Below are positions 17,305 to 40,836 of a stretch of DNA of 64,000 nt, piece by piece. Made by a program: the position numbers and the translations under genes. Positions within the stretch are counted from its first letter, which is position 1. Every line of letters starts with the position of its first letter. Source of the DNA: an uncultured Ignavibacteria bacterium (GTDB lineage: Bacteria; Bacteroidota; Ignavibacteria; UBA10030; UBA6906); assembly GCA_963701735.1 (NCBI GenBank), contig CAVPBI010000022.1, positions 72,604-136,603 on the forward strand, in the 5' to 3' direction. The notes under the pieces were generated by a model. It saw nothing but the letters and a program-made list of their open reading frames with translations, ran no database searches and was not told the DNA's origin.

Positions 17305-20078
17305 TCATGTCCCCTTCTTCCCAACTTGCGCGCCGGGCCCCTTCCTGCTAAAGGCAGACTTCTTCCCTCCTTTTAGGAGTTGCGCGGCATCAAGACTTCC
17401 GAAGAGCTGGATCAGCACGGCGACCGCTCCGGTCCATCCAGTCTGGTGACTTGCTCCGAGGCCCGCGCCATTGTCGCCGTGGAAGTACTCATGAAAGAGG
17501 AGGTGGTCCCGCCAGTGTGGATCGTTCTGGAACCTCTCCGAACCACCATAGATAGGGCGTCTGCCGTGCTCATCCCGGAGGAACATGCTGGTGAGGCGGT
17601 CTGCGATCTCCTTGCTCACCTCGAAGAGGTTCATCATCCTCCCAGAACCGGTGGGGCATTCGACCTTGAAGTTATCACCGTAGTACAGGTAGTATTGAAG
17701 GAGCCCCCTGATGAGAACGACATTGACGGGCATCCAGATCGGTCCCCGCCAGTTGGAGTTGCCGCCGAACATGCCGGTGTTCGATTCGGCCGGCAGGTAG
17801 TCCACACGGTACTCCTGCCCGCCCACGTTGAAGACATACGGGTGATCCTTGTGGAACTTCGAGATGGATCGGATGCCGTAGGGACTCAGGAATTCGTTCT
17901 CATCGAGCAGTTTCGAGAGGATCCGGCGGAGCCGTTCGGGGTTGACCAGGGCGAGGATGCCCCGTTCGGCCACTCCCAGATGACCCGGTCCGGTGGGGTG
18001 GATGGACGCCAGCAACTCCGGAATCTGTCTCAGGCGCACGTGCAACGCATCAGCGACCTGCGGGACAAGTTCTCTCTGCCACTTCTCGATAACCGTTGTC
18101 GCGCACAGCGGCAAGAGCCCGACCATGGAGCGCACCTTGAGTCTTGTCGCGCTGCCGTCCGGAAGCCGCAGGAGATCGTAGTAGAACCCGTCCTCCTCAT
18201 CCCACATGCTGTCCTGGCCGGGTTTGTTCATAGCTGCGGCGATGTAGCAGAAGTGCTCCGCAAACTTGAAGACCATGTCTCCGTAGATGGGATCATGGGA
18301 GGCAAGCTCCACCCCGAGCTCAAGCATGTTCTGCGTGAACAGGGCCATCCACGCCGTGCCGTCGGCCTGTTCAAGATAGCCTCCCGTGGGAAGGGGGGCA
18401 CTCCGGTCGAAGACGCCGATGTTGTCGAGGCCAAGGAAGCCTCCCTCGAACACATTCTTGCCGAAGCGGTCCTTCCGGTTCACCCACCATGTGAAGTTCA
18501 GAAGAAGCTTGTTGAAGGCCTGTTTGAGGAACGCTATGTCGCCCTCGCCCCGCATGGCCTGCTCGGTGCGGTGGTTGAACAGGGTTGCCCAGGCGTGAAC
18601 GGGAGGATTCACGTCGCTGAAGTTCCACTCGTACGCGGGGAGCTGGCCGCTGGGGTGAAGGTAGCGCCCGCGGAGCATCAGCTTCATCTGATCCCTGGCG
18701 AAGTCAGGATCCACGATCGAGATCGGCAGCGTGTGGAAAGCGAGGTCCCATGCCGCGTACCAGGGGTACTCCCACTTGTCGGGCATGGAGATGATATCCT
18801 CGTTGACCATGTGGAACCAGTCCCGGTTCCGGAATTCGCGGCTCCCCCCTGAAGGGGGTGAGCACGGTGTTCCTGCAGCCACTGATTGGCGTCCATATAG
18901 TAGTACTGCTTGGACCAGAGCATCCCTGCGATGGCCTGGCGCATCACGCTCGCGGCGTCCGGAGAGATCTTGGCTGGGGTCACGGAGCGGTAGAACTCGT
19001 CAGCCTCCTGCACCCTGGCGGCGAACGATTCAGCGAACTCCGACCCGAATGGAGTGCCGTCACTCTCGGTTTCTTTCTTCTGCTGATCAGCGGACTGGTT
19101 CCTCAAGCGCAGCCGGACCGTCGCCGACTGGCCCGCGCCAATTGTGAGCGGGTAGTACGCTGCGGCTTTGGTGCCAACACACCCTGGGTTCACTGCCTCC
19201 TGGCGACCGTGGACGACGCAGTCGTTGATGCCGTCTTTGACGTGAGGGCTGTTGTTCGGATACTCGGGAAAGAGCCGCGCGTTGTTCGTTTCATTCTCAG
19301 TGAACAGGAGGGCTGCAACACCTTCACAGTGCAGATAGTATGTGCCCAGCGCCGGATGCGTTGCCGCTATCGCTCGTGACCCCGCTGGTCCCTTGATCTG
19401 CTTGAGTGTCGGCTTTTCTGAAGGTTCTGCCACCCAGGTTGCCCAGTCGTTCCGGAACCAGAGCGTCGGGAGCACGTGCAGCTCGGCCGCCTCCGGCCCA
19501 CGATTGGCGGCGGTGATCTGCACCAGGATGTCCTCCGGGCCGGCCTTGGCGTATTCCACGAAGACGTCGAAGTAGCGATCCTTCTCGAAGACGCCCGTGT
19601 CGAGCAGTTCATACTCCATCTCGTCGCGCGTGCGCCGGCGGTTGGTCTCGACGAGGTCGCCGTACGGATACGCGGCCTGTGGATACTTGTAGAGGTACTT
19701 CATGTAGGAATGGGTCGGCGTCGAGTCGAGGTAGAAATAGTACTCCTTCACGTCCTCGCCGTGGTTCCCCTCGCTGTTGGTCAGCCCGAAGAGGCGTTCC
19801 TTGAGAATGGGGTCCTTCCCATTCCACAGGGCCAGGGCAAAGCAGAGGTGCTGGTTGAGATCGGAGATTCCGGCCAGGCCGTCCTCGCCCCACCTGTAGG
19901 CCCTCGACCGTGCCTGGTCATGTGTGAAGTAGTTCCAGGCATCGCCCCCTTCGCTATAGTCCTCGCGCACCGTCCCCCACTGTCGCTCAGAGAGGTAGGG
20001 GCCCCATTTTCGCCACGGTGATCCCGTTCTGGCTTCCTCGAGGCGTTTCTGTTCTGCATTCAACTTGGCCTTCGCCAT
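17305..20078 (-). CDS. Glycoside hydrolase family 63-like glucosidase (mannosyl-/glucosylglycerate hydrolase-type); frame disrupted at a C6/G5 homopolymer near 18845
   Basis: N-terminal ORF has …PWRKWGPYLSERQWGTVREDYS…. C-terminal ORF has …MPDKWEYPWYAAWDLAFH… and …SPYGIRSISKFH…GGNSNWRGPIWMPVN, the (alpha/alpha)6-barrel catalytic domain of GH63. Confidence 0.8.
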
Positions 20079-24896: not shown

Positions 24897-26009
24897 CTAC
24901 CGCCCCGTGAACTCCTCTCGCCTCACGGTCACACGCTCGAGCCTCTCACTGAGCACCTCCACCCCGATCCCGGGCCCCGTCGGGACGGCCATCGTCCCGT
25001 CCTTCGCAACCACGAACTCCGGGTCAACGATGTCTTCGCGGTAGTACCGCTTGCTGGCGGAGATGTCGCCCGGCAGCGTAAAGCCCGGAAGCGATGCGAG
25101 GGCGACGTTGCCTGCGCGCCCGATTCCCGACTCGAGCATGCCGCCGTGCCAGACCGGAATTCCACGCGACATGCACAGGTCGTGAATGCGCTTCGACTCG
25201 GTGAACCCGCTCACGCGGCCCGGCTTGATGTTGATCACCCGGCAGGCATCCAGCTCGAGCGCTGCGTTCGCATCCGCGAGCGAATGGATACTCTCGTCCA
25301 GGCAGATCGGAGTTTTGAGCTCGCGCTGCAGCTTGGCGTGGTCAAAAATGTCGTCGTAGCCGAGAGGCTGCTCGATGAGCAGCAGCCGCTGGTCATCCAT
25401 CTGCCTGAACAGATCGATATCATCGAGCGTGAAGGCGGAGTTCGCATCCACCTGGAACGGGATGTCCGGAAACGCCGAGCGCACGGCCCGGACGAGCGCG
25501 ACGTCGTGCCCGGGTGCGATCTTGATCTTGATGCGCCTGTAGCCCTCCTCCAGGTATCCTGCCACTTTTGTGACGAGCACCTCCGGCGACTCCTGGATCC
25601 CGATGCTTACCCCCACATCGATACGCGGCCGGACGCCGCCCAGCGCCTTCGAGAGCGAGACACCCCGGGACTTTGCCAGAAGGTCCCACAATGCAGCCTC
25701 CAACCCCGCCTTCGCCATCATATGCCCCCGCACAGGGGGCCAGAGAGCCATCGCGGCAGACACATCGGAGATGGACCTCCCCAGCAGAGACGGGACCAGA
25801 AAATCACGCAGGATGTGCCACGCGGTCTGGACCGTCTCGTAGGAATAGAACGGGGTCCCCTCGGCGACGGATTCCCCCCATCCGGTCAGTCCCTCCCCGT
25901 CAACCCGTACGATAATATGCTCCTCGTCGGTCTCGACGCCCATGGACGTGACGAACGGCGCGACAAGGACGAGCTTTACATGCCGGAGTTCAATACGTTC
26001 GATGCGCAT
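24897..26009 (-). CDS. Enolase-superfamily enzyme, o-succinylbenzoate synthase / N-acylamino-acid racemase (MR subgroup)
   Basis: KxK motif RRIKIKIAPG and metal ligands …QVDANSAF…, …LIEQPL…, …ICLDESI…. Confidence 0.8.
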   Translation of the reverse strand: MRIERIELRHVKLVLVAPFVTSMGVETDEEHIIVRVDGEGLTGWGESVAEGTPFYSYETVQTAWHILRDFLVPSLLGRSISDVSAAMALWPPVRGHMMAKAGLEAALWDLLAKSRGVSLSKALGGVRPRIDVGVSIGIQESPEVLVTKVAGYLEEGYRRIKIKIAPGHDVALVRAVRSAFPDIPFQVDANSAFTLDDIDLFRQMDDQRLLLIEQPLGYDDIFDHAKLQRELKTPICLDESIHSLADANAALELDACRVINIKPGRVSGFTESKRIHDLCMSRGIPVWHGGMLESGIGRAGNVALASLPGFTLPGDISASKRYYREDIVDPEFVVAKDGTMAVPTGPGIGVEVLSERLERVTVRREEFTGR

Positions 26010-26090
26010 TTTGGTGCAGGCTCCAGAACAGAGAAGGCCCCATCAACAGGGCCTCCTCACGATGTAACATCAACAGGCAGTGGAACGTCG

Positions 26091-26699
26091 TCAATAGGTA
26101 CGGAACTGCCAGGACAGCATGACCTGGACGCTGACATTCTGGTCGCGATAGCGTTCCATGTACTGATAGCGTACCTCGCCGCCAAGTTGCAGATCGCTGG
26201 CGATGGGGTACATGTAGGACACCGCGACGTACATGTACGGTGTGAAGGAGGAAACGTTTGACGTCGCCCCGAAGAACTCCACATGGGACGTCAGCAGTCC
26301 AGCCCCCATCCCCAGCCACACGTCGAAACGATCGATCACAGGCATGGAGAACGTCAGAAGAATCGGCATGACATACAGCGAAGTCTGCGCGTTCGTCGTG
26401 CCGAACTCGTTTGTGAACGATTCCACCTCCGCGCCGTACACATAATGGTAACCGGTTTCGAGCCCGACGCGCAGGAGATGTTCCGGCTTCCACATAACGC
26501 GAAGCGTGCCGGAGAATCCGTTCTGCAACAGGCCTTCCGGCTTGAAATCGAAACTGGAGATATTCCGCGTGTACCCTCCGCCGGCGTACAGAATCCATGC
26601 ATAACTGGTGTCGGGATTCCCGGCACGAAGCTGACCGCCGGGCAGGAGGAGAAGCAGCGCGGGCACCCAGAGTGCAAGCTTACTGGATATAGTAGGCAT
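26091..26699 (-). CDS. Outer-membrane beta-barrel protein
   Basis: Start at MPTISSKLALWVPALLLLLPGGQLRAG (signal peptide). Beta-strand periodicity. C-terminal …LSWQFRTY. Confidence 0.6.
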   Translation of the reverse strand: MPTISSKLALWVPALLLLLPGGQLRAGNPDTSYAWILYAGGGYTRNISSFDFKPEGLLQNGFSGTLRVMWKPEHLLRVGLETGYHYVYGAEVESFTNEFGTTNAQTSLYVMPILLTFSMPVIDRFDVWLGMGAGLLTSHVEFFGATSNVSSFTPYMYVAVSYMYPIASDLQLGGEVRYQYMERYRDQNVSVQVMLSWQFRTY

Positions 26700-27939
26700 A
26701 CGCCACCGCTGTCGGATAGTTGGTGAGGATGCCATCGAACGTGCCCCGCGCGATGAATTGATTAATGTAACTTGGTACATCCAGCGTCCACACGAACGCC
26801 CGCCGCCCTTCAGCCTTCATCGCCGCGACGTCAGCGTCCAGTGTGCCCTGTGTCCACCTGGGCCCCCAGACTTCGGCATCCACGGCGCGGCAATCGTCCG
26901 TGCTGAGCTCGCAGAGCGTCTGGAGCTGTTGATAATTGGGGTAGCGTTTCACCTCCTCAAGCACGTCATCAGTCGGAATGCCGATCATGATGTCGAGCCG
27001 CCGCCCGGCCGCCTGGGCACGGGCAAGGGCCGCTTGCTGAATCGGCACCACCTTCTCGATGAGGTTCCGCCCTTCGGTCTTCGAATCAAGCCATACGAAG
27101 CTGAGGTTCGTTTCGTCCACGACGACCGTGAGGACCTCCTCGAGCGTTGGAATCTTCTCTCCGTTGATGATAAGGCGGATGGCCGAGCGCACCTGCGCGA
27201 ACGTGTAGTCCTCGACCCCTCCGACCAGAGCAGTCTTTCTCGTCAGCCTGGGGTTGATGCTGCCGTCGTGGTACAGGATCGGCACGCCGTCCTTTGTCAG
27301 GCGCACATCGATCTCGATGCCCGTCGCTCCGAAGCCTTCCGCCAGCCGGATCATTTCCACGGTATTCTCAGACGCCGGGATGCGATCCGAGGTGCGGCCC
27401 CCGCCACGGTGCGAGACGACTTCGAATTTGCCCTCCAGGAGATCCGCACGAATCGGGCGAGCGTATTCGAGCACAAGTGGCCGGCTTGGTGATTCCTGAC
27501 CGTCGCCGATGGCTCCCGTGATCAAGATCGATTGCCGCGCCAAAGTCTCGTTCATCAGGAATCTGCCGCCGTCTTCACGCTTGATGCCCAGGCGTGCGAG
27601 CCCGGTCTGGTTGCTTGTTGCGAACCGCCAGTACCCCTCCAGGACGAAGACGGAGTCGATCACGCCGGCTTGCAGGATGAAATGACCGACGTTCTTGCCC
27701 GCGAAGATGGACAGAACATTCTTCGACCACTTGACAACCACGGTCCCACCAAACTGGTCCGCTCCCTGGAGAACGTTGTAGATGCCGGTCAGCTTTGCCT
27801 TCGAGGCTTCAGGAATAGGATATGTCTGATCCAGAACACCGCCGCCCGGAAACTGCGGCACGTCCAGTATGTTCGGATCTTCACACGATGACAACACCAT
27901 CGCGAGGGCGAGAACTGCTACAACCTGTCGTGTCGTCAT
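26680..27939 (-). CDS. Glycerophosphodiester phosphodiesterase (GDPD) family lipoprotein with N-terminal extra domain
   Basis: Signal/lipobox MTTRQVVAVLALAMVLSSCEDP. GDPD motifs VVSHRGGG…ENT and GIEIDVRLTKDGVPILYHD. Confidence 0.75.
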   Translation of the reverse strand: MTTRQVVAVLALAMVLSSCEDPNILDVPQFPGGGVLDQTYPIPEASKAKLTGIYNVLQGADQFGGTVVVKWSKNVLSIFAGKNVGHFILQAGVIDSVFVLEGYWRFATSNQTGLARLGIKREDGGRFLMNETLARQSILITGAIGDGQESPSRPLVLEYARPIRADLLEGKFEVVSHRGGGRTSDRIPASENTVEMIRLAEGFGATGIEIDVRLTKDGVPILYHDGSINPRLTRKTALVGGVEDYTFAQVRSAIRLIINGEKIPTLEEVLTVVVDETNLSFVWLDSKTEGRNLIEKVVPIQQAALARAQAAGRRLDIMIGIPTDDVLEEVKRYPNYQQLQTLCELSTDDCRAVDAEVWGPRWTQGTLDADVAAMKAEGRRAFVWTLDVPSYINQFIARGTFDGILTNYPTAVAYAYYIQ

Positions 27940-32473: not shown

Positions 32474-33358
32474 CTATGTCTCCAGAAACGGAATCGTCAC
32501 CACCACGGCATTCCCCGTCCCCTCATACAACAGGTCCATCGCAGCCCTGGTCAACGCAATCCCCCGCCCGTGATTGTCAAAGACCCTGGCCTCATCGAAG
32601 TCGAGGTACTTCGCGGAGTCAAACCCGGGGCCGCTATCCTCGATGCGAATCGTCAGCTTGTCCGGCTCCCTGACGACCTCAACCCTGACCGTCTTCCCGG
32701 CATTCTCGGGAAGCGTAAGCCTCCGGTCGACCTCCTTGTGCCAGATCCCGTCATTCAGAAGGTCCGTTTTCTCGTCGTACGTGATCCCCAGATTGCCGTG
32801 CTCGATGGCGTTGATCAAGATCTCGTGGATGCCCATGGCACGAGCCGGGTTAGGCGTCGCGTTCGCGATCCAGAGAGCGAGGCGCTCCGCCTCCTTGAGC
32901 GTCCGCAAGAGGAACACCCCGCTCTGCAACATGCCGAACGGGTTCTGGCACCCGGCAAGGTTCGCGAGCAGCGACTCCTTGTACGAAAAGTCCTCCACCG
33001 CAGCGCGGATAATCGCGTGGAGCACCTTGTCGTCCGCCGATTTCGCAAGGAAATAGAATGCGCCCGCGTCTATCCCCTCTCGAATGTGCGCGTCCGACGG
33101 CGAATCGGTCTGCATAATCACCGGCGTCTTCTTCAGCGTGGCGTGACCCTTCAGCCAGAGGAGCGTGGACAGGCCGCTTTCGCCCCGGTTCTGCCAGTCG
33201 AGCACGATGGCTGTAATCTGCTCGGGATGCCGCTCCACAAGATCCTCCGCCTCCTGCACCCGCCTGACCGGGAGGACAGTGTACCCCTCCGCCTTGATCC
33301 CGGCACTCATCCTGGTCCGGGTCTGATCATCCTCGCAGACAACAAGCACTGACGACAT
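32474..33358 (-). CDS. Response-regulator receiver domain fused to RsbW/SpoIIAB-like GHKL ATPase (serine-kinase-type HATPase_c); no HisKA domain
   Basis: REC: MSSVLVVCEDD…IVLDW…VIMQTD…FLAKS. GHKL: N-box HEILINAIEHGN, G1 IEDSGPGFD, G2 GRGIAL. Confidence 0.75.
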   Translation of the reverse strand: MSSVLVVCEDDQTRTRMSAGIKAEGYTVLPVRRVQEAEDLVERHPEQITAIVLDWQNRGESGLSTLLWLKGHATLKKTPVIMQTDSPSDAHIREGIDAGAFYFLAKSADDKVLHAIIRAAVEDFSYKESLLANLAGCQNPFGMLQSGVFLLRTLKEAERLALWIANATPNPARAMGIHEILINAIEHGNLGITYDEKTDLLNDGIWHKEVDRRLTLPENAGKTVRVEVVREPDKLTIRIEDSGPGFDSAKYLDFDEARVFDNHGRGIALTRAAMDLLYEGTGNAVVVTIPFLET

Positions 33359-33387: not shown

Positions 33388-34407
33388 TCAGCCGCCCGAG
33401 CCCAGCAGCTCGAGCTGCCAGCGATTCCGTGCTCCGGCCGGGAGGAACGGGTGCAGCGCAAGCATCCCCGTCTTCCCGATCGACCTTTCAAGAAAATCCA
33501 TCTCCGCCAGCTTCTCCCTGACTTCCGGGTCGGGTTCCGGAACGAAGCCGGCCTCCCGCATCAGCATGACAGCCTTCGCGCTGATGGAGAGCTCAACCTG
33601 CAGTCGCAGCAGGCACAGCATATCCGCGACGATTTCGTTCGGGAACCGCTCCTGCAACGTTTGCAGGTACTGGCCGACGTGGGTTTCGGTGAGCACGCCC
33701 GTCGTGATCATCTCCAGCAGATTCTGGTCCGTGTCGAACCCGACGCCAAGCCACTCCTGCGTGCTCTTCTCGCTGAACTTGAACACGATCGCCATCACTG
33801 CCGGCACGCCGACCACCGTGGCGAATGCGGACTGGACGGGCGATACAAAGAAATGATTGAAGACGCTGTGGATGATGATCGCGCCGATCAGCCCCGGAAG
33901 GATCGCGCCACCGAGGGTGCCGGATTTCCGCTCCAGCACCGACCGGCCGAGGACCGCCACCATCGCCGTGACGCCCCCGTGCATGAGCGCCGTGCCGAGG
34001 CCGCGCACAAGCCACAGCAGCGGGTTGGTCTCGGTCACCGCGAACAGGTAGGTGATGTTCTCCACCAGCGCAAAGCCGGTACCGACAGCAAAACCGTAGA
34101 CGGCAGCATCAACGAGGAACCCGATCCTCTTCTTCCAGAGAAGCCAGATGGGCAACGCCGCCTTGAGACACTCTTCGAGGACGGGAGCGATGTATCTGGA
34201 GTACGACTCCGGCGACACTCCCACGCCGCCCGTCACGGTCCTCGCCATCACAAACGCGATCAGCGCCGCAGCAACGCCAGCCCCCACCGCCACGAGCACG
34301 GATCGAAACGTCACGAGCTTGTAGCTGTCGAGATAGACCAAGCCTCCCAGGAAGAGGACGACCGGGAGAAGGCTGACCAGCGCCGCGCCGATGGGGCTTT
34401 GCATCAC
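33388..34407 (-). CDS. PrsW-family intramembrane metalloprotease (anti-sigma-factor site-1 protease type)
   Basis: PrsW motifs EExxK (PVLEECLK), FxxxEN (GFALVENITY), MHGG and HxxxN (HSVFNHF). Polytopic. Confidence 0.7.
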   Translation of the reverse strand: MMQSPIGAALVSLLPVVLFLGGLVYLDSYKLVTFRSVLVAVGAGVAAALIAFVMARTVTGGVGVSPESYSRYIAPVLEECLKAALPIWLLWKKRIGFLVDAAVYGFAVGTGFALVENITYLFAVTETNPLLWLVRGLGTALMHGGVTAMVAVLGRSVLERKSGTLGGAILPGLIGAIIIHSVFNHFFVSPVQSAFATVVGVPAVMAIVFKFSEKSTQEWLGVGFDTDQNLLEMITTGVLTETHVGQYLQTLQERFPNEIVADMLCLLRLQVELSISAKAVMLMREAGFVPEPDPEVREKLAEMDFLERSIGKTGMLALHPFLPAGARNRWQLELLGSGG

Positions 34408-37365
34408 AGGATCTTGAGCGATGCCATGAATTCTCCCGTCCCCCGCCGGTCAGGCCCGCCTGCCACGGCGTACCCGATGGAAAGGACCGAGCTCAGGTTC
34501 GAAAACAGCACAAGCTTGACGTCGGCCTGCACGCCCACGTTTGCGCTCACCGTCCGCAGATCATCGTCCTGCAGATTCGTGACGAGGCCGGTCCCGAAGA
34601 ACGCCAGCCGCGCCCATGTAACGTACATGCCGGGGAAACCTGCCCGCCGGAACCGGAGCGGAGGAGGATTCCATTCGACCATCGCCTTCGTGAACGTCTT
34701 GCCGGGGATCTCATCGATCTCCACACCCGGAAACCTGAGCGCGCTCCCTGTACCGGCGCTCCGAGCCGTGGTCAACCCAGTTGTTGCCGAAGCCTCCGAA
34801 GAAGAAGTTCGCGAACGGATCCGCCGAGCTCCCCGCCGCATAGCCCGCGGCGGTCCTGAGCCACACAGAGGAATGCTGGAACAGCGCCGGAACACCGATG
34901 TCGAATGTCCCGGACACGAGCGGGTTGAACCGCTTCTCCGAAAGGTACGCGTATCCGACAAGAGACGCCAGGACTCCCTTCTCCGCATCCACCGCCCCCA
35001 GCGAGCGGACCACGCGCGAGTACTTCAGGCGGCCGAAGAACGTGAGAAATTCGCTCACCGCCGTGCCGATGTTCTGGAAGGCCGGGAGACGCTCGAGGTC
35101 CGAGTATCCGCTCACCCTCAACGTATACTCAAGGTTCGACGGACGATCGTTGATGAGCACATCCGTGTACCCCACGCTCAGCTGGTAGCCGCGCCTGCTC
35201 GATTTGTACGGTCCGAACAGGTCGTAGAAATCTGACACGTTGTAGGTCGCGCTCACGTCCCACTGCCAGTACCGGTATCTGAGGATCCCGTGAAACTGCT
35301 CCTTCAGATCGAAGCTGGGGTTCGGCGTGTACGCGAGTGAGAAGTCGATATTGTGGAGGAGCAGCGGATCGAAGAAATCCATCCGGACGCCGCCGCCAAT
35401 CGATTCCTTGTAACCGTGGATAATGGGATACATCGATCGCAAACCGATGGCGCCCAGACCTTCATAGTCTCCCGTGGCAACGATCAGCGAGTCAATGTTG
35501 ATGCGCGCCGCGGACGGTGGCGGGAGCTTCCACGACTGCACTTCCGGATACTTCTCGGCGATCTGTTGCCCCAGGTAGGTCACGGCGCTGACATTCTCGG
35601 TGGTCGTAACCGGCACCTGCACGGGGATGAAGCCTTCGGTCGTGAACTCGAAGGCGACGAGCGAATCGTCCGACATCGGCACCGGCCGGAACAGACCGCG
35701 TTCCGTATTGGTGATCCACTCCATCACGCGCCGCCCGGTATCGTACCGGACGATGTTGGAAACGCCGGTGTAGTAGGTCGAGCCGTACAGGTATCGCCCA
35801 TCGGGAGACCACACGAAATTGAGGGGCGCCGTGTGCTCGAAGTCGTGCAGCACATCGTAGTCGGCCCCTCCGGTCAGCAGCGTGTCCACCCAGATCCGCA
35901 CAAGGCGCTGCCTGCCGCTGATCTCCATCATCCCCGCGGCGATCGACTTGCCGTCGGGCGAGATATCCAGGTCGTACAGATCCACGCCGTAGTTCAACGG
36001 AAGGATCTCCTGCCAGCGGGCATACGGATACGGAATCCTGACCAGCCTGGAAACTCCGTCGTGATGCTGGACCCCCCAGAGCGCGCTGTCCGCCCGGCAG
36101 AACGTCAGGTCCCCGATCCGGCAGTTCTTCAGGAGCAGGCGGGATGCGCCTGTCCGGATGTCGAGGGCGTTCAGATCCCTCCATCCCTTGCTGTTCTTCG
36201 TCGTGTAAAAGAAGGTGCCGGAAGAGGGGTCGAACGCCGTGGAGGCCACGGTATACAGCGACGGCGTGGGCAGGTCGCTCACCCGCTCGACCGTTCCGTC
36301 CGAGAGATGGATGGAGCTGATGCTTGCGAGCACGCCCGGCGCGTTCATGCCCAGATACAGCGAGCGCGTAGCCGGGTCGAAGTGGGCGCGCGAGACGGCG
36401 CCGACCGGCTTCGCCGTGATCGGACGGAGGGGCGTGACGGGATACTGCCGGACTGCCGCAAGATTCGCCTCCTGGAACGTACGCTCGGCCGCGATCCATT
36501 CGGACCACACATCATCGATGTCCCTGCCATAGACCTCTTCGAACTGTCCGGCGAACGACGCGTCGGACTCCGGACCGCGCTTGAACCAGTCGATGATCGT
36601 CTGCGGCCCGTAGTGGTCCGCAAGGTAGCTGACGAATCGCGTTCCGTAGAGATACGAGTTCGCCCCGATCTGAAAATCGACGGTGGTCCCTTCCGACTCC
36701 AGACCGACGTAATCATAGAAGTACGAGCTGTCCCGGACCATCGTCCGGAACACCATCTCGTCCCATCCGTTCTGCGCGCGGCCGATCCCGCCCGACATCC
36801 ACGTCTCCATGAACACGGCGACGCCTTCGTGGTACCATCGCGGGGAGTATTTCCTCGGGTTGGTCAGATAGGTATAGGCGATCGAGACGGGCTCATCATC
36901 CGTGGGCGACACCTTGCCGAGGAACGCGCTGCGCCAGAAGCTGTCCGATCCGCCCGGCTTGTCACTGCGCGACGATATGCACGAGCTCGTGGCCGATCAC
37001 CCAGTTGATGCGCTCGTTGGTCGGCGAGGTCTCATACGTGTATTCGTACGGTGAGATCCCGAGGATCATGTAGTTGATCGGAACGCTTGTCGCGCCCGCG
37101 TAGCCGTAGTCGTCGTAGTCCTGCAGGTACACGACAACGGGTTCGGTAGGAGTGTACTCGAAGAGCGTGTGGTGGAACGAGAGTGCGTTCTGGAAACTGC
37201 GCATGAGATGGGGGATGATGAAACGGTGCTCATCAGCGTAGTACACCAGGCGCATCGATCCCGTTCGGACCGTATAGAAGTCGGCCGCGCGAACGGCCGT
37301 CGGGACCGCAGGGGCCACCAGCATGAGGCACCACAGCACCCAGAGGGCCCGGCGCCTATGCGACA
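34404..37365 (-). CDS. Large secreted multidomain protein: N-terminal HExxH zinc-metallopeptidase, PD40/TolB-like beta-propeller repeats, C-terminal Omp85/surface-antigen-like beta-barrel; frame disrupted at about 36940, 34900 and 34720
   Basis: HELVHIVAQ is in ORF 36962-37444. Repeats …ISPDGKSIAAG… and …WSPDGRYLYGS… are in ORF 34711-36912. A C-terminal barrel-like segment ends in …MASLKIL (ORF 34404-34988). A possible GTG start encodes VSHRRRALWVLWCLMLVAPAVPTAVRA. Confidence 0.6.
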
Positions 37366-37479
37366 CAACGGGAGTCGTGGTCACAGGTTTGGATATGGGG
37401 TCATGGAGGTGGAAACAGCACGAGGAGTGGCGCTGGCGCGCCACTCCCCGAGGGAAACCTACAGGATTGTCACACAGGA

Positions 37480-38822
37480 TCAGTCGTTGCCGCGGGCCGA
37501 GCGCTCGGCGTCGGGTGCGGTGCGGGCCTCGAACTCAGCATTCTTGCCTTCGACGGCGCTGCGCATCTCAACCGGCACCTTCGCCCCGAGGAACGCACGC
37601 TCTGCCACGGGAAGCGAGCCGAGCACTTCCGCCTTCTGGCTCACCGGCATACGATCGAACGACTTCAGCCGCTCTTCAACCGACATGCTGGCAGCGAGAA
37701 CCGCGCGCCCTTCGGCGGGAAGCCGGTCCAGCACAGCAAGCCTCTCGGCTCTGCGGCAGCCTGTCGAGAGCGCTGATCTTCGCTTCGGCCGGCATCCGAT
37801 CCCACATGCTGACCTTGGCTTCGGTGGGCATCCTGTCGAGCGCCTTGGCACGCTCGGTGTTGACCATCTTCTCGGCTACGAGCGCCTTGGCTTCGGTCGA
37901 CATGTTGTCGAGCGCCGAGGCGCGCTCTGCAACGCTGCTGGTCGCCGCCAGCTGGGCTTTGGCTTCCGCCGGGGCATAATTCTGAAGCGCAGCCGCCTTG
38001 TCGTTCATCGCAAGACGATCAAGATACGCCGCCTTCTCCGTCGCCGGCAGGCTGGCAAAGGCCTTGACCCGGTCCGCCATCGCCAGACGGTCGACCAGGC
38101 TCGCCTTCTCGTTGACCGGCATTGCGGCCAGGGCCCTGGTCCGATCGGTCATCGCCAGGCGGTCCCACATCGCAACGCGCTCAGTGGCCGACGTTGAGGC
38201 ATACAGGGCAGCACGCTGCGTGCTTCCCATCCGGTCCATCAACGCCGTCCGCTCTTCCACGCTCATACGGTCGGCCAGGGCGGCCTTGTCGCTGGCGCTC
38301 AGCTGCGCGAACCGCTGCGCGGCCGCATCGGTGGCATCGGCGCCGGCGATCTGGACGTCGTTCTCGGTGATCTGCCCGGAACGGTATTTCTTCACGCTGC
38401 CGATCGTTCCGGCCGCCTCGTTTTCAAACGGGGACGGATAGAAGAATGTGAAGTAGGCGAGCGTGGCGATCCCGAGTGCGATCCCCGCCAAGGGCGATCC
38501 GGTTCCGCTTGGCGTTGCTACGGTTGCTCATAACAGCCTCCACTGGAGATGGTGTGTGTGCAAGAGAATTCAAAATCTGTTGGAGCATGGTCCGTCGGCG
38601 CGGCACCGGCATCCGTTCGACTGCCCGCATCACCGACGGCTTCAGTGTCGGAGGCGCGGCAGCCGGCTGGCTCAGGGCGCCCGCGATCGCCTTCATGTCA
38701 TTGTACAGTCTCGCAACCTCGGCATCCTCCCGCACCAGCACCTGTACCCTGGCACTCTCCGCGGGACTGTTGATGCCGTCAACCTCCGACTGCACAAGGT
38801 CTCGTATCGTCTGATCAATCAT
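37480..38822 (-). CDS. Anti-sigma factor (membrane-spanning) with periplasmic 12-aa tandem-repeat domain; frame disrupted at about 38460 and 37860
   Basis: The start overlaps the ECF sigma gene stop. N-terminal cytoplasmic part MIDQTIRDLVQSEVDG…. Transmembrane helix IALGIATLAYFTFFY. Then more than 20 repeats of [LM]DR[LM]xxxE[KR]Axx. Confidence 0.55.
37560..38290 (-). repeat. Intragenic approximately 36-bp tandem repeats (coding 12-aa units) within the anti-sigma gene
   Basis: DNA units such as ggcttcggtgggcatcctgtcgagcgccttggcacgctc and ggcttcggtcgacatgttgtcgagcgccgaggcgcgctc recur. The protein shows …ALADRMSVEERTALMDRMGSTQRAALY…LDRLAMNDKAAAL…LDRMPTEAKVSMWDRMPAEAKISALDRLP. Confidence 0.7.
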
Positions 38823-39351
38823 GGCCCGATAATCCTTCCCGACTCATTATCTCTCGCAACATCGCCCGCGCGCTGAACAACCGCGACTTCACCGTCTTTG
38901 CCGGAATCCCGAGGATCGCTCCGATCTCCTCGTACGGCAACTCCTGCACATACTTCAGGACAAGGATCGAGCGATGATGGACGTCCAGCTTCGAGAGGCA
39001 CTTCTGGACGAGCTCCGGAAGGTCCGGGCTTTCCGCGTGCCCGTCTGCCGACTCGAGCCCTTCATCCAGCGCCTGCATCCGTGACCGTCGCTCAATCGCA
39101 TTGACTGACTCATTGTGCGCTATGCGGTAGATCCAGCTGAAGAACTTGTACCTGGGATCGAACGTGCTGAGCTTTTCGTACGCCTTGAGAAACGCCGCCT
39201 GCGCAACATCCTCAGCCTCTTCCTTCACTCCGAGCATCCGCCAGGCGATCGTGAACACCTGTGCCTGGTATCGCTCCACCAGCAGCCCGAAGGCATCCCG
39301 ATCGCCCTCAAGGGTCCGCTGGACCAGCCCGTTGTCGTCCAGGTGTATCAT
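38815..39351 (-). CDS. RNA polymerase ECF-type sigma-70 factor
   Basis: Region 2 …FGLLVERYQAQVFTIAWRMLG…. Region 4 …LVLKYVQELPYEEIGAILGIPAKTVKSRL. Confidence 0.85.
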   Translation of the reverse strand: MIHLDDNGLVQRTLEGDRDAFGLLVERYQAQVFTIAWRMLGVKEEAEDVAQAAFLKAYEKLSTFDPRYKFFSWIYRIAHNESVNAIERRSRMQALDEGLESADGHAESPDLPELVQKCLSKLDVHHRSILVLKYVQELPYEEIGAILGIPAKTVKSRLFSARAMLREIMSREGLSGHD

Positions 39352-39381: not shown

Positions 39382-39672
39382 CTATTCTTCCTCAATCCTG
39401 AAAATCGTGTCGAATCTGGCGATCCTGAAGACGTCGCGGATGAGCTTGTTCATGTGGGTCAGAACCAGCTCGTTTCCACCTGATTTCAAGCGTTTCTGAG
39501 TCTTCAGGAGGATCCCCAGGCCCAGGCTGGAGATGTAGTCCAGGTTCTTCATGTCAACCCGGCTGGTCGTCGTGACACGGTCGAGGACGGCATCCGCTTC
39601 GGCCACGCGGGACGCGTCGAATCTGCCCGTGAGGACGATCTCCCCATCTTCCCTCTGGGTAATCGTGAACAT
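39382..39672 (-). CDS. STAS-domain anti-sigma-factor antagonist (SpoIIAA/RsbV-like)
   Basis: 96 aa. …VDMKNLDYISSLGLGILL… carries a candidate phospho-serine in the DYISS motif. Confidence 0.75.
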   Translation of the reverse strand: MFTITQREDGEIVLTGRFDASRVAEADAVLDRVTTTSRVDMKNLDYISSLGLGILLKTQKRLKSGGNELVLTHMNKLIRDVFRIARFDTIFRIEEE

Positions 39673-39673
39673 G

Positions 39674-40120
39674 CTACTGCCTCAGACGTTTGACAAGCGT
39701 GATGGTGCTGCGGCGGTCTTCATAGGCGTACCGAACGTCGTCCAGCATGTGCCGCGACAGGTGAATGCCCAGGCCGCCCGGCGTTCGCTCCTCCAGCGAC
39801 AGCGACACGTCCACCGGACCGGTGGCGGTGACGTCGAAGGAATTCACGTCACGCGCGACGAGGTACACGACGAGCGCTTCCCCTTCCAGCCGGACCCCGA
39901 CGGTGACGTCGCGATCGCTCTCCGGATTGTACTTCACGAAATTCGTGAAGAACTCTTCCACCGCGAGCGTGAGAGCGTACGAGGTGGCCGGGTCGGGAGC
40001 GTGCCGGGCAAACTCCCCGTCGAGGAACGCAAACACCTCGTCGAGGGCTGCGACGGACTTCCTGAAGTCTTTCTCCATGATGGGATCTCGGCACCAGCCT
40101 GCGCGTGCCCGGTCGCTCAA
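39674..40120 (-). CDS. Anti-sigma regulatory factor, serine-protein kinase (RsbW/SpoIIAB-like HATPase_c)
   Basis: 148 aa. …ALTLAVEEFFTNFVKYN… (N-box-like) and …ERTPGGLGIHL… (G2). Lies 2 bp downstream of the STAS gene and its start overlaps the SIMPL gene stop by 4 bp. Confidence 0.7.
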   Translation of the reverse strand: MSDRARAGWCRDPIMEKDFRKSVAALDEVFAFLDGEFARHAPDPATSYALTLAVEEFFTNFVKYNPESDRDVTVGVRLEGEALVVYLVARDVNSFDVTATGPVDVSLSLEERTPGGLGIHLSRHMLDDVRYAYEDRRSTITLVKRLRQ

Positions 40121-40836
40121 TCGACGAGATAAAACTCGATGCTCGTGACGACGCGGATGAGCTTCACGTCGGGTGAATTCGCATCCCGGTTGCTGATCGA
40201 AAAGTACCCCTGCGTCGCGGAGCGGATCTTCCCGACCTCGCTCCCCGAGTCCGTCGCGAATTTCTCCGCCGCCGCCCGTGCGTCCTTCGTCGCCGATTCT
40301 ATCATCTCAGGCTTGATCACATTGAGCGCGGTATAGATGAACTCCGTCGGCGTCTGCCAGTTGTCAGCGGTCAACGCGACGCCCTTCCCCACCAGCGCGC
40401 CCGACTTCTCCATCGTTTGCTTTACACGATCCACATTGTCGGAGCGCGTCGTCACCGTCACGTCCGCGACATACCGGTACCGGGTCACAACGTTGGAGCC
40501 GAACGCCTGCGTGTCGTTGATGCGCGGGACCGAGTAGGAAATCGATTCTTGCTGGAAGCCCGCGTCGCGGAGGAACGAGGTCACCGCCGCCCGTCCCGCA
40601 TCGATGTCACGCTGCAGTGCGCCGAGATCGTTCCCGGTCACCCTGAACGTGATCGGCCAGATGGCAAGGTCGGCCTTGACTTCCCGCTCGGCCAGCCCTT
40701 TGACCGTCACGAACCGGTCGGACGCCCGGCCTTTGTAGATGCCGAGTCCGATCGCAATACCAGCACAGACAATGCACAGCCCTAGAATGACGTGAGGGGT
40801 AAGACCTTTTGTTTCCACAGCTTCCTCCGGACGCAT
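40117..40836 (-). CDS. SIMPL-domain protein (DUF541)
   Basis: 239 aa with an N-terminal transmembrane/signal segment. …ADLAIWPITFRVTGNDLGALQRDIDAGRAAVTSFL… is typical of the SIMPL family. Confidence 0.65.
   Translation of the reverse strand: MRPEEAVETKGLTPHVILGLCIVCAGIAIGLGIYKGRASDRFVTVKGLAEREVKADLAIWPITFRVTGNDLGALQRDIDAGRAAVTSFLRDAGFQQESISYSVPRINDTQAFGSNVVTRYRYVADVTVTTRSDNVDRVKQTMEKSGALVGKGVALTADNWQTPTEFIYTALNVIKPEMIESATKDARAAAEKFATDSGSEVGKIRSATQGYFSISNRDANSPDVKLIRVVTSIEFYLVD

What the first reader, a model, noticed from the sequence alone, without database searches (positions are those of the whole stretch)
34404..37365. About 1000-aa protein combining an HExxH zinc peptidase, PD40/TolB-like beta-propeller repeats and an Omp85-like C-terminal beta-barrel
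A signal peptide precedes a peptidase unit (HELVHIVAQ, with a downstream HEGVAVFMETW). This is followed by repeats (SPDGKSIAAG, WSPDGRYLYGS) typical of TolB/tricorn-type propellers. The C-terminal about 250 aa has amphipathic beta-strand periodicity and ends in KIL, like surface-antigen barrels. I do not recognise an outer-membrane-embedded protease with this architecture as a described family. Its position next to PrsW and an anti-sigma suggests a regulated-proteolysis role. The gene carries three frame disruptions in the supplied sequence.
Basis: partly seen in the sequence, partly recalled or inferred. Interest (0 to 1): 0.55.

Follow-up and report, generated by a model that had tools for sequence, protein, structure and literature searches.

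The report
Outer-membrane zinc peptidase partnered with PrsW
A roughly 990-residue protein that joins a zinc peptidase and a TolB-like propeller to a BamA-type outer-membrane barrel is really encoded here (broken by two one-base insertions); it fits a catalogued but unstudied Omp85 subfamily and is almost always encoded beside the PrsW protease and a sigma/anti-sigma pair, which suggests proteolytic signalling across the cell envelope.

Summary
The three-domain gene is real, on the minus strand at 34404-37366 (possibly starting at 37444). It has two frame disruptions, not three. Both are single extra C bases (36967, 34743) compared with an intact relative. Removing them gives one ORF that aligns without gaps to more than 3,400 intact homologues of about 980 aa.

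- an M1/M30-like gluzincin domain, with HExxH and WxxEG kept in all 85 loci examined;
- a six-bladed TolB-like propeller;
- a 16-stranded barrel closest to BamA, Sam50, Toc75 and TamA, with no POTRA domain.

This architecture was already catalogued as the "WD40-like" Omp85 subfamily (Heinz & Lithgow 2014), which was still uncharacterised in 2024.

The gene context appears to be new. A PrsW-family protease lies directly downstream in 72 of 74 loci, overlapping by one base here. A SigW-like ECF sigma, an anti-sigma and an RsbW/STAS pair lie upstream in about 80% of loci. One lineage encodes PrsW and this protein as a single ORF.

Most likely this is a periplasmic peptidase anchored in the outer membrane that works with PrsW in regulated proteolysis of the co-encoded membrane anti-sigma. 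That mechanism is inferred, not shown.

The parts
34404..37366 (-). Whole gene for the peptidase-propeller-barrel protein ('Big'). The likely start is GTG at 37366; an alternative GTG lies at 37444. The stop is TGA at 34406-34404. In the window it is read in three frames because of two 1-nt insertions.
   Evidence: ORFs and six-frame translation. The stitched product aligns gap-free to intact homologues. DNA alignment to L087. Start region read.
37286..37366 (-). Signal peptide (residues 27-53 of the 1012-aa numbering): RRR, a hydrophobic core, then VRA|AD.
   Evidence: Sequence read directly. Homologues align only from A54 onward. AF2 gives a low-confidence helix at residues 29-43.
36439..37285 (-). 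Gluzincin (M1/M30-like) peptidase domain, residues ~54-335.
36977..36991 (-). HELVH zinc-binding/catalytic motif (H152, E153, H156).
   Evidence: Invariant in 61 aligned homologues. HExxH is present in all 85 loci examined.
36967..36967 (-). Frame disruption 1: one extra C, 3 nt before the resulting in-frame TGA.
   Evidence: Removing it restores ...HIVASDKPGG..., which matches the homologues.
36823..36837 (-). WYHEG motif; E206 is the predicted third zinc ligand.
   Evidence: W203 and E206 are invariant. W[YF]xE[GS] is present in all 85 loci. The region aligns to the C-terminal half of the Peptidase_M1 and MA_2 profiles.
35608..36411 (-). Six-bladed TolB-like beta-propeller, residues ~345-612.
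34407..35466 (-). 16-stranded Omp85-type beta-barrel, residues ~660-1012, ending ...EFMASLKIL.
34698..34836 (-). Long loop between barrel strands 11 and 12 (residues ~870-915), at the position of Omp85 loop L6. It holds the densest run of invariant residues (FFFGGFGNNWVD...RYR...FPG).
   Evidence: DSSP and invariant columns.
34743..34743 (-). Frame disruption 2: one extra C inside the L6-like loop.
   Evidence: Removing it restores ...RRYREALRFPGVEIDE..., which matches the homologues.
33388..34404 (-). PrsW-family intramembrane protease. Its ATG (34404-34402) overlaps the TGA of the upstream gene by one base.
   Evidence: Pfam PF13367, E 9.5e-20. Overlap read. Same position in 72/74 homologous loci.
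37480..38822 (-). Membrane anti-sigma-like gene, in three pieces here because of two frameshifts (near 38482 and ~37750). It consists of an N-terminal anti-sigma-like domain, one TM segment, a conserved GTIGSVKKYRS juxtamembrane motif and long helical repeats.
   Evidence: ORFs. Intact 443-446-aa versions in L001, L086 and L087. Indels. Weak MgtE_N-like repeats.
38815..39351 (-). ECF sigma factor, SigW-like.
   Evidence: Pfam Sigma70_r2/r4_2/ECF. The best NCBIfam hits are SigW models, below the equivalog cut-offs.
39382..39672 (-). STAS anti-sigma-antagonist-like protein.
   Evidence: Pfam STAS_2/STAS. NCBIfam TIGR00377 gives 53.2 bits, just under the 53.45 cut-off. Conserved upstream in 42/53 loci.
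39674..40120 (-). RsbW-like HATPase_c_2 serine kinase/anti-sigma-type protein.
   Evidence: Pfam HATPase_c_2, E 3.8e-13. Conserved upstream in 40/53 loci.

Best explanation
The gene encodes a POTRA-less Omp85-family outer-membrane protein. Its N-terminal part, a zinc gluzincin peptidase followed by a six-bladed TolB-like propeller, hangs in the periplasm from a 16-stranded BamA-type barrel. It forms a functional unit with the inner-membrane protease PrsW, which is encoded immediately downstream and is translationally coupled.

Proposed mechanism: the unit carries out regulated proteolysis of a co-encoded single-pass membrane protein. In this lineage that protein is fused to the anti-sigma domain. 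Its periplasmic part is a conserved juxtamembrane motif followed by a long helical-repeat tail. The outer-membrane-tethered peptidase, using the propeller as a substrate-binding or gating module, attacks or trims the periplasmic tail. PrsW makes the membrane-proximal (site-1-type) cut. The SigW-like ECF sigma is then released. The RsbW/STAS pair adds a cytoplasmic input.

Shown: the architecture, conservation of the catalytic motifs, the fold assignments, the synteny and one PrsW fusion. Inferred: periplasmic topology, the substrate, the order of cleavages and the signal sensed.

The two frameshifts in this copy are most likely sequence errors rather than biology.
For: Single ORF and family size:
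- More than 3,400 homologues, with gap-free alignment across both joints.
- 750 clusters at 50% identity with E<=1e-30.
- At least 568 hits among GTDB species representatives in Bacteroidota, Latescibacterota, Eisenbacteria, Zixibacteria, Calditrichota, Fibrobacterota, KSB1 and Acidobacteriota.

Structure:
- The full-length AF2 model has pLDDT 87.7 and pTM 0.85.
- HExxH and WxxEG are retained in 85/85 loci, so the peptidase is under selection to stay active.

Coupling to PrsW:
- PrsW is directly downstream on the same strand in 72/74 loci.
- The stop and start codons overlap by one base here and in L001, L003, L086 and L087.
- PrsW and this protein form one 1365-aa ORF on contigs from two independent runs.

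Coupling to sigma signalling:
- Upstream in loci with enough flank: ECF sigma in 43/53, STAS in 42/53, RsbW-like in 40/53.
- Bryobacteraceae loci that lacked a same-strand sigma still carry STAS + HATPase_c_2 directly upstream and a divergent ECF sigma.
- The sigma's best matches are SigW models. In Bacillus, PrsW is the site-1 protease of the SigW anti-sigma RsiW (established knowledge; PMC4105308 reviews the Gram-positive ECF sigmas).

Candidate substrate:
- A TM protein with the motif GTIGxxKKYR plus repeats occurs in 24/65 loci and 0 times on the control strand.
- It is fused to the anti-sigma domain in this lineage, and it also sits directly upstream of the PrsW fusion gene.

Periplasmic location:
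- The N-terminus of an even-stranded Omp85 barrel is periplasmic.
- The enzymatic domain of PlpD was shown to be periplasmic (PMC11116518).
- One family variant carries an N-terminal AMIN domain.
Against: - There is no experimental datum for any member. No protease activity, topology or substrate has been shown.
- The M1 family consists mostly of aminopeptidases. A type-II anti-sigma exposes a C-terminus in the periplasm, so simple N-terminal trimming would not work. The GxMEN exopeptidase motif is absent, which leaves specificity open.
- Gene adjacency fits equally well with the pair being the output of the sigma factor rather than its activator.
- About 20% of loci lack an adjacent sigma, and the PrsW-fusion locus has none. 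The core unit may therefore have a role that is not signalling.
- No conserved ECF-type promoter was found.
- Four of the five or more frameshifts I found in the window fall in this gene and the adjacent anti-sigma. Genuine decay of the module in this organism cannot be excluded.
Confidence: 0.45

Rival explanations
1. Envelope quality-control effector rather than signal transducer. The outer-membrane-tethered peptidase and PrsW are the output of the sigma factor. They degrade misassembled outer-membrane or periplasmic proteins, like a BepA/DegP function built onto a BamA-like barrel that captures unfolded beta-barrel substrates at its seam.
For: - The barrel is closest to BamA-type insertases.
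- The pair persists where no sigma is adjacent, and in the fusion locus.
- ECF operons commonly include their own targets (general knowledge).
- Heinz & Lithgow proposed periplasmic quality control for Omp85 proteins carrying enzymatic domains.
- A distant relative lies beside an M48+TPR BepA-like gene (a single case).
Against: - It does not explain why PrsW in particular is the invariant partner. The characterised roles of PrsW are site-1 cleavage of anti-sigmas.
- It does not explain why a TM protein with a conserved juxtamembrane motif travels with the pair and is fused to the anti-sigma domain here.
- Distant paralogues are not PrsW-linked, so the link is specific to this group.
Confidence: 0.3
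2. The copy in this window is a true pseudogene: the anti-sigma/peptidase module is decaying in this organism.
For: - There are two frameshifts in this gene and two in the adjacent anti-sigma, within 4.4 kb. The five other genes of the cluster are intact.
- The two insertions in this gene are not in homopolymers.
Against: - There are no in-frame stops, deletions or loss of any invariant residue. The copy is 88% identical to intact proteins.
- A frameshift also occurs 17 kb away in an unrelated glycosidase-like gene, at a C5/G6 homopolymer.
- Split fragments of this same gene occur on other assemblies in a homologue's cluster.
- My frameshift survey of the rest of the window was not exhaustive.
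Confidence: 0.25
3. Type-V-like surface display: the barrel exports the peptidase and propeller to the cell surface, where they act on external proteins.
For: - Omp85 relatives of the TpsB type translocate partners.
- This was once proposed for PlpD and for Omp85 proteins with enzymatic domains.
Against: - The PlpD domain was shown to be exclusively periplasmic.
- The partners are inner-membrane or periplasm-facing (PrsW, anti-sigma).
- One variant has an AMIN domain at its N-terminus.
- There is no POTRA or TPS-type element.
Confidence: 0.07
4. Three separate genes that only look like one.
For: Three ORFs are listed mechanically.
Against: - The breaks fall inside a conserved helix-loop of the peptidase domain and inside a barrel loop.
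- Neither downstream piece has its own signal peptide.
- All homologues are single ORFs, and the joints align without gaps.
Confidence: 0.01

Closest known systems
'WD40-like' Omp85 subfamily (Heinz & Lithgow 2014, Front Microbiol 5:370, PMC4104836)
   Same: - Both have an Omp85-type barrel preceded by a TolB-like propeller instead of POTRA domains.
- Their Table S3 also records M1-aminopeptidase structure matches (1z5h, 4kxd, 3qnf) N-terminal to the propeller.
- Their member list covers overlapping taxa (Gemmatimonas aurantiaca C1A6X2, Rhodothermus, Caldithrix, Chloroherpeton).
   Different: - That paper gives no function, does not discuss the peptidase in its main text, and reports no gene context.
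- Many of its members hit Pfam PF01103. This protein and the relatives I tested do not.
- I could not obtain their sequences, so direct sequence membership is untested.
- The PrsW/sigma linkage is specific to this orthologous group. Two distant full-length relatives lack it.
PlpD, the patatin-like Omp85 of Pseudomonas aeruginosa (Hanson et al. 2024, PMC11116518)
   Same: An Omp85 barrel is used as a membrane anchor for an N-terminal enzymatic domain that stays in the periplasm.
   Different: PlpD has a lipase domain and one POTRA domain and forms homodimers. Here there is a zinc peptidase plus a propeller, no POTRA, and an obligate PrsW neighbour.
SigW-RsiW-PrsW regulated intramembrane proteolysis of Bacillus subtilis
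   Same: Both have a PrsW-family protease, a SigW-like ECF sigma (best NCBIfam hits) and a single-pass anti-sigma encoded together.
   Different: - In Bacillus, prsW is not in the sigW operon, and there is no outer membrane or Omp85 component.
- Here an RsbW/STAS pair and an outer-membrane-anchored peptidase are added.
- No cleavage has been demonstrated here.
M1 aminopeptidases / tricorn-interacting factor F3, and M30 hyicolysin-type endopeptidases
   Different: - There is no GxMEN motif, no M1 N-terminal beta domain and no C-terminal ERAP-type domain.
- About 49 residues lie between HExxH and the Glu, versus 18 in M1.
- Pfam scores are below threshold.
TolB
   Different: The TolB N-terminal domain is absent. 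The propeller is covalently embedded between a peptidase and a barrel. Sequence identity is about 16%.
Outer-membrane-to-ECF signalling systems (RseA/DegS/RseP; FecA-FecR-FecI cell-surface signalling)
   Same: The logic is the same: an envelope-spanning set of proteins that ends in proteolysis of a membrane anti-sigma.
   Different: The parts are entirely different: an Omp85 barrel with its own peptidase instead of a TonB-dependent transducer or DegS, and PrsW as the inner-membrane protease.

Membership tests
Omp85 superfamily | 16-stranded C-terminal beta-barrel with the Omp85 fold | tested here: met
Omp85 superfamily | [quoted passage not shown] | tested here: not met
   The 50-residue linker (613-660) has two short helices and one short strand, not a beta-alpha-alpha-beta-beta unit. 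There is no POTRA Pfam hit. This matches the POTRA-less subfamilies of Heinz & Lithgow.
Omp85 superfamily | Conserved loop L6 between strands 11 and 12 carrying the (V/I)RG(F/Y) motif | tested here: inconclusive
   A 45-residue loop lies at exactly that position and holds the family's densest invariant block (GGFGNN.VD...RYR...FPG). The canonical VRGF/Y tetrad is not present as such.
Omp85 superfamily | Sequence match to Pfam Omp85 models (PF01103 / PF19143) above threshold | tested here: not met
   There is no PF01103 hit. PF19143 (Omp85_2) scores only 13.8-17.8 bits against a 23.1 cut-off. Eight of 38 homologues hit it at E<=0.01.
WD40-like Omp85 subfamily (Heinz & Lithgow 2014) | TolB-like beta-propeller in place of POTRA, N-terminal to the barrel | tested here: met
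WD40-like Omp85 subfamily (Heinz & Lithgow 2014) | M1-aminopeptidase-like region N-terminal to the propeller (their Table S3) | tested here: met
WD40-like Omp85 subfamily (Heinz & Lithgow 2014) | Clusters by sequence with the listed UniProt members (e.g. C1A6X2, D0MEQ5, H1XQ58) | not testable with these tools
   UniProt sequences could not be fetched, and the listing of cluster members returned no accessions.
Gluzincin metallopeptidases (clan MA(E); M1-like) | HExxH motif plus a downstream Glu as third zinc ligand | tested here: met
   H152, E153, H156 and E206 are invariant in 61 sequences and present in 85/85 loci. Spacing is 49 residues, not the 18 of M1.
Gluzincin metallopeptidases (clan MA(E); M1-like) | Thermolysin-like catalytic fold | tested here: met
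Peptidase family M1 proper | GxMEN exopeptidase motif upstream of HExxH; Pfam PF01433 above threshold | tested here: not met
   No GxMEN in the 100 residues before HExxH (alignment read directly). PF01433 scores 16.7 bits against a 27.7 cut-off.
Gluzincin metallopeptidases | Zinc-dependent peptide-bond hydrolysis | not testable with these tools
   Requires an enzyme assay.
SigW/RsiW/PrsW-type regulated proteolysis | PrsW-family protease encoded with the system | tested here: met
   PF13367 at 71.4 bits (cut-off 23.5). It is adjacent in 72/74 loci. It scores only 26 bits against the Bacillus PrsW equivalog model (cut-off 225), so it is a family member and not an orthologue by that model.
SigW/RsiW/PrsW-type regulated proteolysis | ECF sigma of the SigW type with a single-pass anti-sigma | tested here: inconclusive
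   The sigma's top NCBIfam hits are SigW models (135 and 124 bits), well below the cut-offs of 209 and 243. The anti-sigma has no Pfam or NCBIfam hit. Its assignment rests on position after the sigma, an N-terminal anti-sigma-like segment and one TM segment.
SigW/RsiW/PrsW-type regulated proteolysis | PrsW cleaves the anti-sigma on the extracytoplasmic side | not testable with these tools
   Requires genetics or biochemistry.

The most novel reading that the evidence does not exclude
The Omp85 barrel here is neither an insertase nor a translocase. It is the outer-membrane end of a signalling device that spans the envelope. In this reading, a POTRA-less BamA-like barrel senses the state of the outer membrane. 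It controls its own tethered gluzincin and TolB-like propeller, which together with inner-membrane PrsW destroy a periplasm-spanning anti-sigma and switch on a SigW-like regulon. That would give the first function for the WD40-like Omp85 subfamily. It would also be a previously unrecognised outer-membrane-to-cytoplasm stress pathway shared by the FCB group, Gemmatimonadota and Acidobacteriota.
Probability: 0.3. Interest if true: 0.8.

Novelty: new variant of a known kind. Interest (0 to 1): 0.55.

Why it matters
Omp85 proteins are known as machines that insert or translocate other proteins. The subfamilies that carry enzymatic or propeller domains instead of POTRA domains have been listed since 2014, and as of 2024 they still had no assigned function (PMC11116518).

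The near-obligate pairing with PrsW found here holds across at least eight phyla, and one lineage fuses the two genes. Together with the usual SigW-like sigma, anti-sigma and partner-switch genes, this turns a bare domain architecture into a specific hypothesis that can be tested genetically.

If the hypothesis holds, many abundant soil and sediment bacteria sense envelope state through a pathway unlike the DegS/RseP or TonB-transducer systems of Proteobacteria. It would also show PrsW working in diderm bacteria with an outer-membrane partner.

Tried and rejected
1. Pfam and NCBIfam on the raw ORF pieces and on the stitched domains gave only sub-threshold hits. A profile search of PDB sequences gave only marginal TolB hits. 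Fold comparison was needed.
2. The afdb50 fold library was not available.
3. I searched for an ECF-type promoter shared upstream of the operon and of this gene, using gapped dyad counts against shuffles across 82 and 45 loci. Nothing exceeded the shuffled controls. The method is crude, so this is not evidence of absence.
4. I considered that the two C insertions reflect methylation-motif (GCGC) base-calling errors. I rejected this because GCGC occurs 619 times in the window.
5. GC3/ORF-overlap heuristics meant to count all frameshifts in the window were too noisy in this high-GC sequence. Only three affected genes are documented.
6. I looked for a description of this gene neighbourhood in the ECF reclassification paper (PMC7826278). 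The main text has no PrsW or STAS mention, and the supplements are not held. Searches combining PrsW with ECF/STAS, Omp85 or Bacteroidetes found nothing relevant.
7. The listing of cluster members gave no accessions to tie the family to the UniProt entries of Heinz & Lithgow.
8. Rfam found nothing in the window.
9. Programmed frameshifting was rejected. Relatives at 80% nucleotide identity simply lack the extra base, and other genes are affected too.


Full report
**Observation**

The region 34404-37444 holds three overlapping or abutting minus-strand ORFs:
- 36962-37444, ending ...GHELVHIVAQ*;
- 34711-36912, whose frame is open from 36966;
- 34404-34988, ending ...ASLKIL*.

Reading the DNA at the two joints and aligning 6.7 kb of the window to L087 shows exactly two uncompensated indels inside the gene. 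L087 is an intact relative with 80.7% nucleotide identity. Both indels are a single extra C in the window, at 36967 and 34743. The finding said three disruptions; I find two.

Removing these bases gives a 1012-aa product, or about 986 aa from the more likely GTG start at 37366. This product aligns without any gap at either joint to intact proteins of 972-1000 aa, with the best at 88% identity. The 'three separate genes' alternative is therefore refuted.

**Are the frameshifts real?**

The upstream anti-sigma gene is also split into three pieces, whereas it is 443-446 aa and intact in L001, L086 and L087. A glycosidase-like gene 17 kb away is split at a C5/G6 homopolymer. Fragmented copies of this same gene occur on other assemblies within one homologue's 90% cluster. 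Apart from the two insertions, the coding sequence shows no damage and keeps every invariant residue.

I therefore favour sequence error. However, four of the five documented frameshifts lie in two adjacent genes, and the two in this gene are not in homopolymers. I give genuine decay about one chance in four. My attempts to count frameshifts across the whole window were not reliable.

**What the protein is**

Sequence-profile methods barely see the domains. Pfam gives only sub-threshold Peptidase_MA_2, Peptidase_M1, BSP, PD40 and Omp85_2 hits. Among 38 homologues, 11 hit PD40, 9 hit Peptidase_MA_2 and 8 hit Omp85_2 at E<=0.01. NCBIfam has nothing useful. A family profile finds only marginal TolB hits among PDB sequences.

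An AlphaFold2 model built from a 61-sequence alignment is confident (pLDDT 87.7, pTM 0.85). It shows:
- an alpha/beta-plus-helical domain (residues ~54-335);
- 24 strands in six blades (~345-612);
- a short linker;
- 16 long strands (667-1011), with a 45-residue loop between strands 11 and 12.

H152, E153, H156 and E206 are invariant in 61 homologues; E206 lies in the motif W-Y-H-E-G. Both motifs are present in all 85 loci examined. The M1 GxMEN motif is absent. I therefore call the domain an M1/M30-like gluzincin of unknown specificity, not an M1 aminopeptidase.

There is no POTRA domain. The loop at the Omp85 L6 position carries the family's densest conserved block (FFFGGFGNNWVD...RYR...FPG), not the canonical VRGF/Y motif.

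**Distribution**

The family is large and old:
- more than 3,400 hits in the 90%-clustered database;
- 750 clusters at 50% identity with E<=1e-30;
- at least 568 hits among GTDB species representatives.

These span Bacteroidota (Ignavibacteria, Balneolales, Rhodothermaceae and others), Latescibacterota, Eisenbacteria, Krumholzibacteria, KSB1, Fibrobacterota, Calditrichota, Zixibacteria, Marinimicrobia and Acidobacteriota. The closest named relative is from a Gemmatimonas MAG (62% identity). The window itself probably comes from Gemmatimonadota; this is an inference from that one name.

**Context**

The gene's TGA overlaps the ATG of a PrsW-family protease by one base. The same overlap is seen in L001, L003, L086 and L087.

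Across the fetched loci with enough flanking sequence:

| Neighbour | Position | Loci |
|---|---|---|
| PrsW | same strand, within 900 nt downstream | 72 of 74 |
| ECF sigma | upstream, same strand | 43 of 53 |
| STAS protein | upstream | 42 of 53 |
| RsbW-like HATPase_c_2 protein | upstream | 40 of 53 |

A Bryobacteraceae locus that scored as 'no sigma' still has STAS and HATPase_c_2 genes directly upstream and a divergently transcribed ECF sigma. The window's sigma scores best against SigW models, below their equivalog cut-offs.

Between sigma and this gene, other lineages encode two proteins:
- an anti-sigma of about 250 aa (N-terminal domain, one TM segment, a small periplasmic domain);
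- often a second single-pass protein, with a conserved juxtamembrane motif (YPP...GTIGxxKKYRxxQIxxxDV) followed by long, lineage-specific helical repeats.

The motif is found in 24 of 65 loci and never on the control strand. In the window's lineage the anti-sigma N-domain is fused directly to this TM-motif-repeat protein.

One lineage encodes PrsW and the three-domain protein as a single 1365-aa ORF. It was recovered from two independent sequencing runs. The signal-peptide-like segment is retained between the halves, and a TM-motif protein (GDIGKAKTYRS) lies immediately upstream.

Two distant full-length relatives are not next to PrsW. The linkage is therefore a property of this orthologous group.

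**Mechanism (inferred)**

The N-terminus of an even-stranded Omp85 barrel is periplasmic. PlpD, the only studied Omp85 with an enzymatic N-domain, keeps that domain in the periplasm (PMC11116518). One family variant begins with an AMIN domain, which to my knowledge is a periplasmic, peptidoglycan-associated module. I therefore place the peptidase and propeller in the periplasm, tethered to the outer membrane.

To my knowledge, the characterised PrsW proteins make the site-1 cut in anti-sigmas of SigW-type ECF sigmas. In Bacillus, further extracytoplasmic trimming is needed before the site-2 protease can act.

The simplest reading of the conserved cluster and the two fusions has four steps:
1. 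The TM-motif-repeat protein, which here is the anti-sigma itself, is the shared substrate.
2. The outer-membrane-tethered gluzincin acts on its periplasmic tail, with the propeller as a binding or gating module.
3. PrsW cuts near the membrane.
4. The sigma is freed, with RsbW/STAS supplying a second, cytoplasmic input.

The main rival is that the pair is the effector of the regulon, an envelope quality-control protease. That rival accounts less well for the specific and invariant PrsW partnership and for the travelling TM-motif protein. It cannot be excluded computationally.

**Comparison with what is known**

The architecture is not new. Heinz & Lithgow (2014, PMC4104836) defined ten Omp85 subfamilies, including a 'WD40-like' one whose propeller resembles TolB. 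Their Table S3 lists BamA/TamA, TolB and M1-aminopeptidase (1z5h, 4kxd, 3qnf, 4fgm) matches for its members. Their member list includes Gemmatimonas aurantiaca, Rhodothermus, Caldithrix and Chloroherpeton proteins.

A 2024 paper still describes these subfamilies as uncharacterised. I could not fetch those sequences, so membership rests on matching all three architectural features and on overlapping taxa.

I found no paper that connects an Omp85 protein with PrsW, or that describes this operon. The ECF classification supplements were not available, so a brief database-level mention cannot be ruled out.

**Verdict**

It is wrong in calling the architecture undescribed.
- The new element is the near-obligate PrsW/ECF-sigma context, which spans many phyla and gives an orphan Omp85 subfamily a testable function.
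- Novelty: new variant of a known kind.
- Interest: 0.55.

Noticed in passing
window 37480-38822 (-): The anti-sigma-like gene upstream is itself split into three ORFs by two frameshifts (near 38482 and ~37740-37761). Intact relatives are 443-446 aa. In this lineage it is a fusion of the anti-sigma N-domain with a TM + 'GTIGSVKKYRS' motif + helical-repeat protein, which is a separate gene in other phyla.
   Followed up: partly
window 17305-20078 (-): A glycosidase-like gene of about 890 aa is split into two overlapping ORFs. The frame change lies in a C5/G6 homopolymer stretch around 18845-18860. I did not run a family search on it.
   Followed up: partly
L089 6001-10098 and L090 4839-8936: PrsW and the peptidase-propeller-barrel protein are one 1365-aa ORF (P0141) in two independent runs, with PrsW N-terminal and the signal-peptide-like segment retained between the halves. 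Taken literally, one chain would have to reach both membranes unless it is cleaved internally.
   Followed up: partly
P0145 / P0147 (representative-library hits): Family variants of about 1210-1226 aa carry an extra N-terminal region of about 260 aa. In P0147 it includes an AMIN domain (24.5 bits, cut-off 20.5) and a weak Cu_amine_oxidN1-like stretch.
   Followed up: partly
window 32474-33358 (-): Directly downstream of PrsW is a response-regulator receiver fused to an RsbW-type HATPase_c_2 domain. tblastn found no counterpart in any of the other loci, so it seems specific to this genome.
   Followed up: partly
window 40117-40836 (-): A SIMPL/DUF541 protein heads the cluster here and in the close relative L086, but was not seen in more distant loci.
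   Followed up: no
L091 3916-5073 (-): A distant full-length relative of the family (P0196) is not PrsW-linked. It lies beside an M48 peptidase + TPR (BepA-like) gene on the opposite strand. This is a single observation.
   Followed up: no
window 26009-27936: A stretch of about 1.9 kb has no long ORF with the high third-position GC of the surrounding genes, and no Rfam match. It is unexplained.
   Followed up: no
L075 4203-6108: In Bryobacteraceae the partner-switch genes are in reversed order (STAS then HATPase_c_2) directly upstream of the gene. A second STAS-domain protein and the ECF sigma are transcribed divergently.
   Followed up: no
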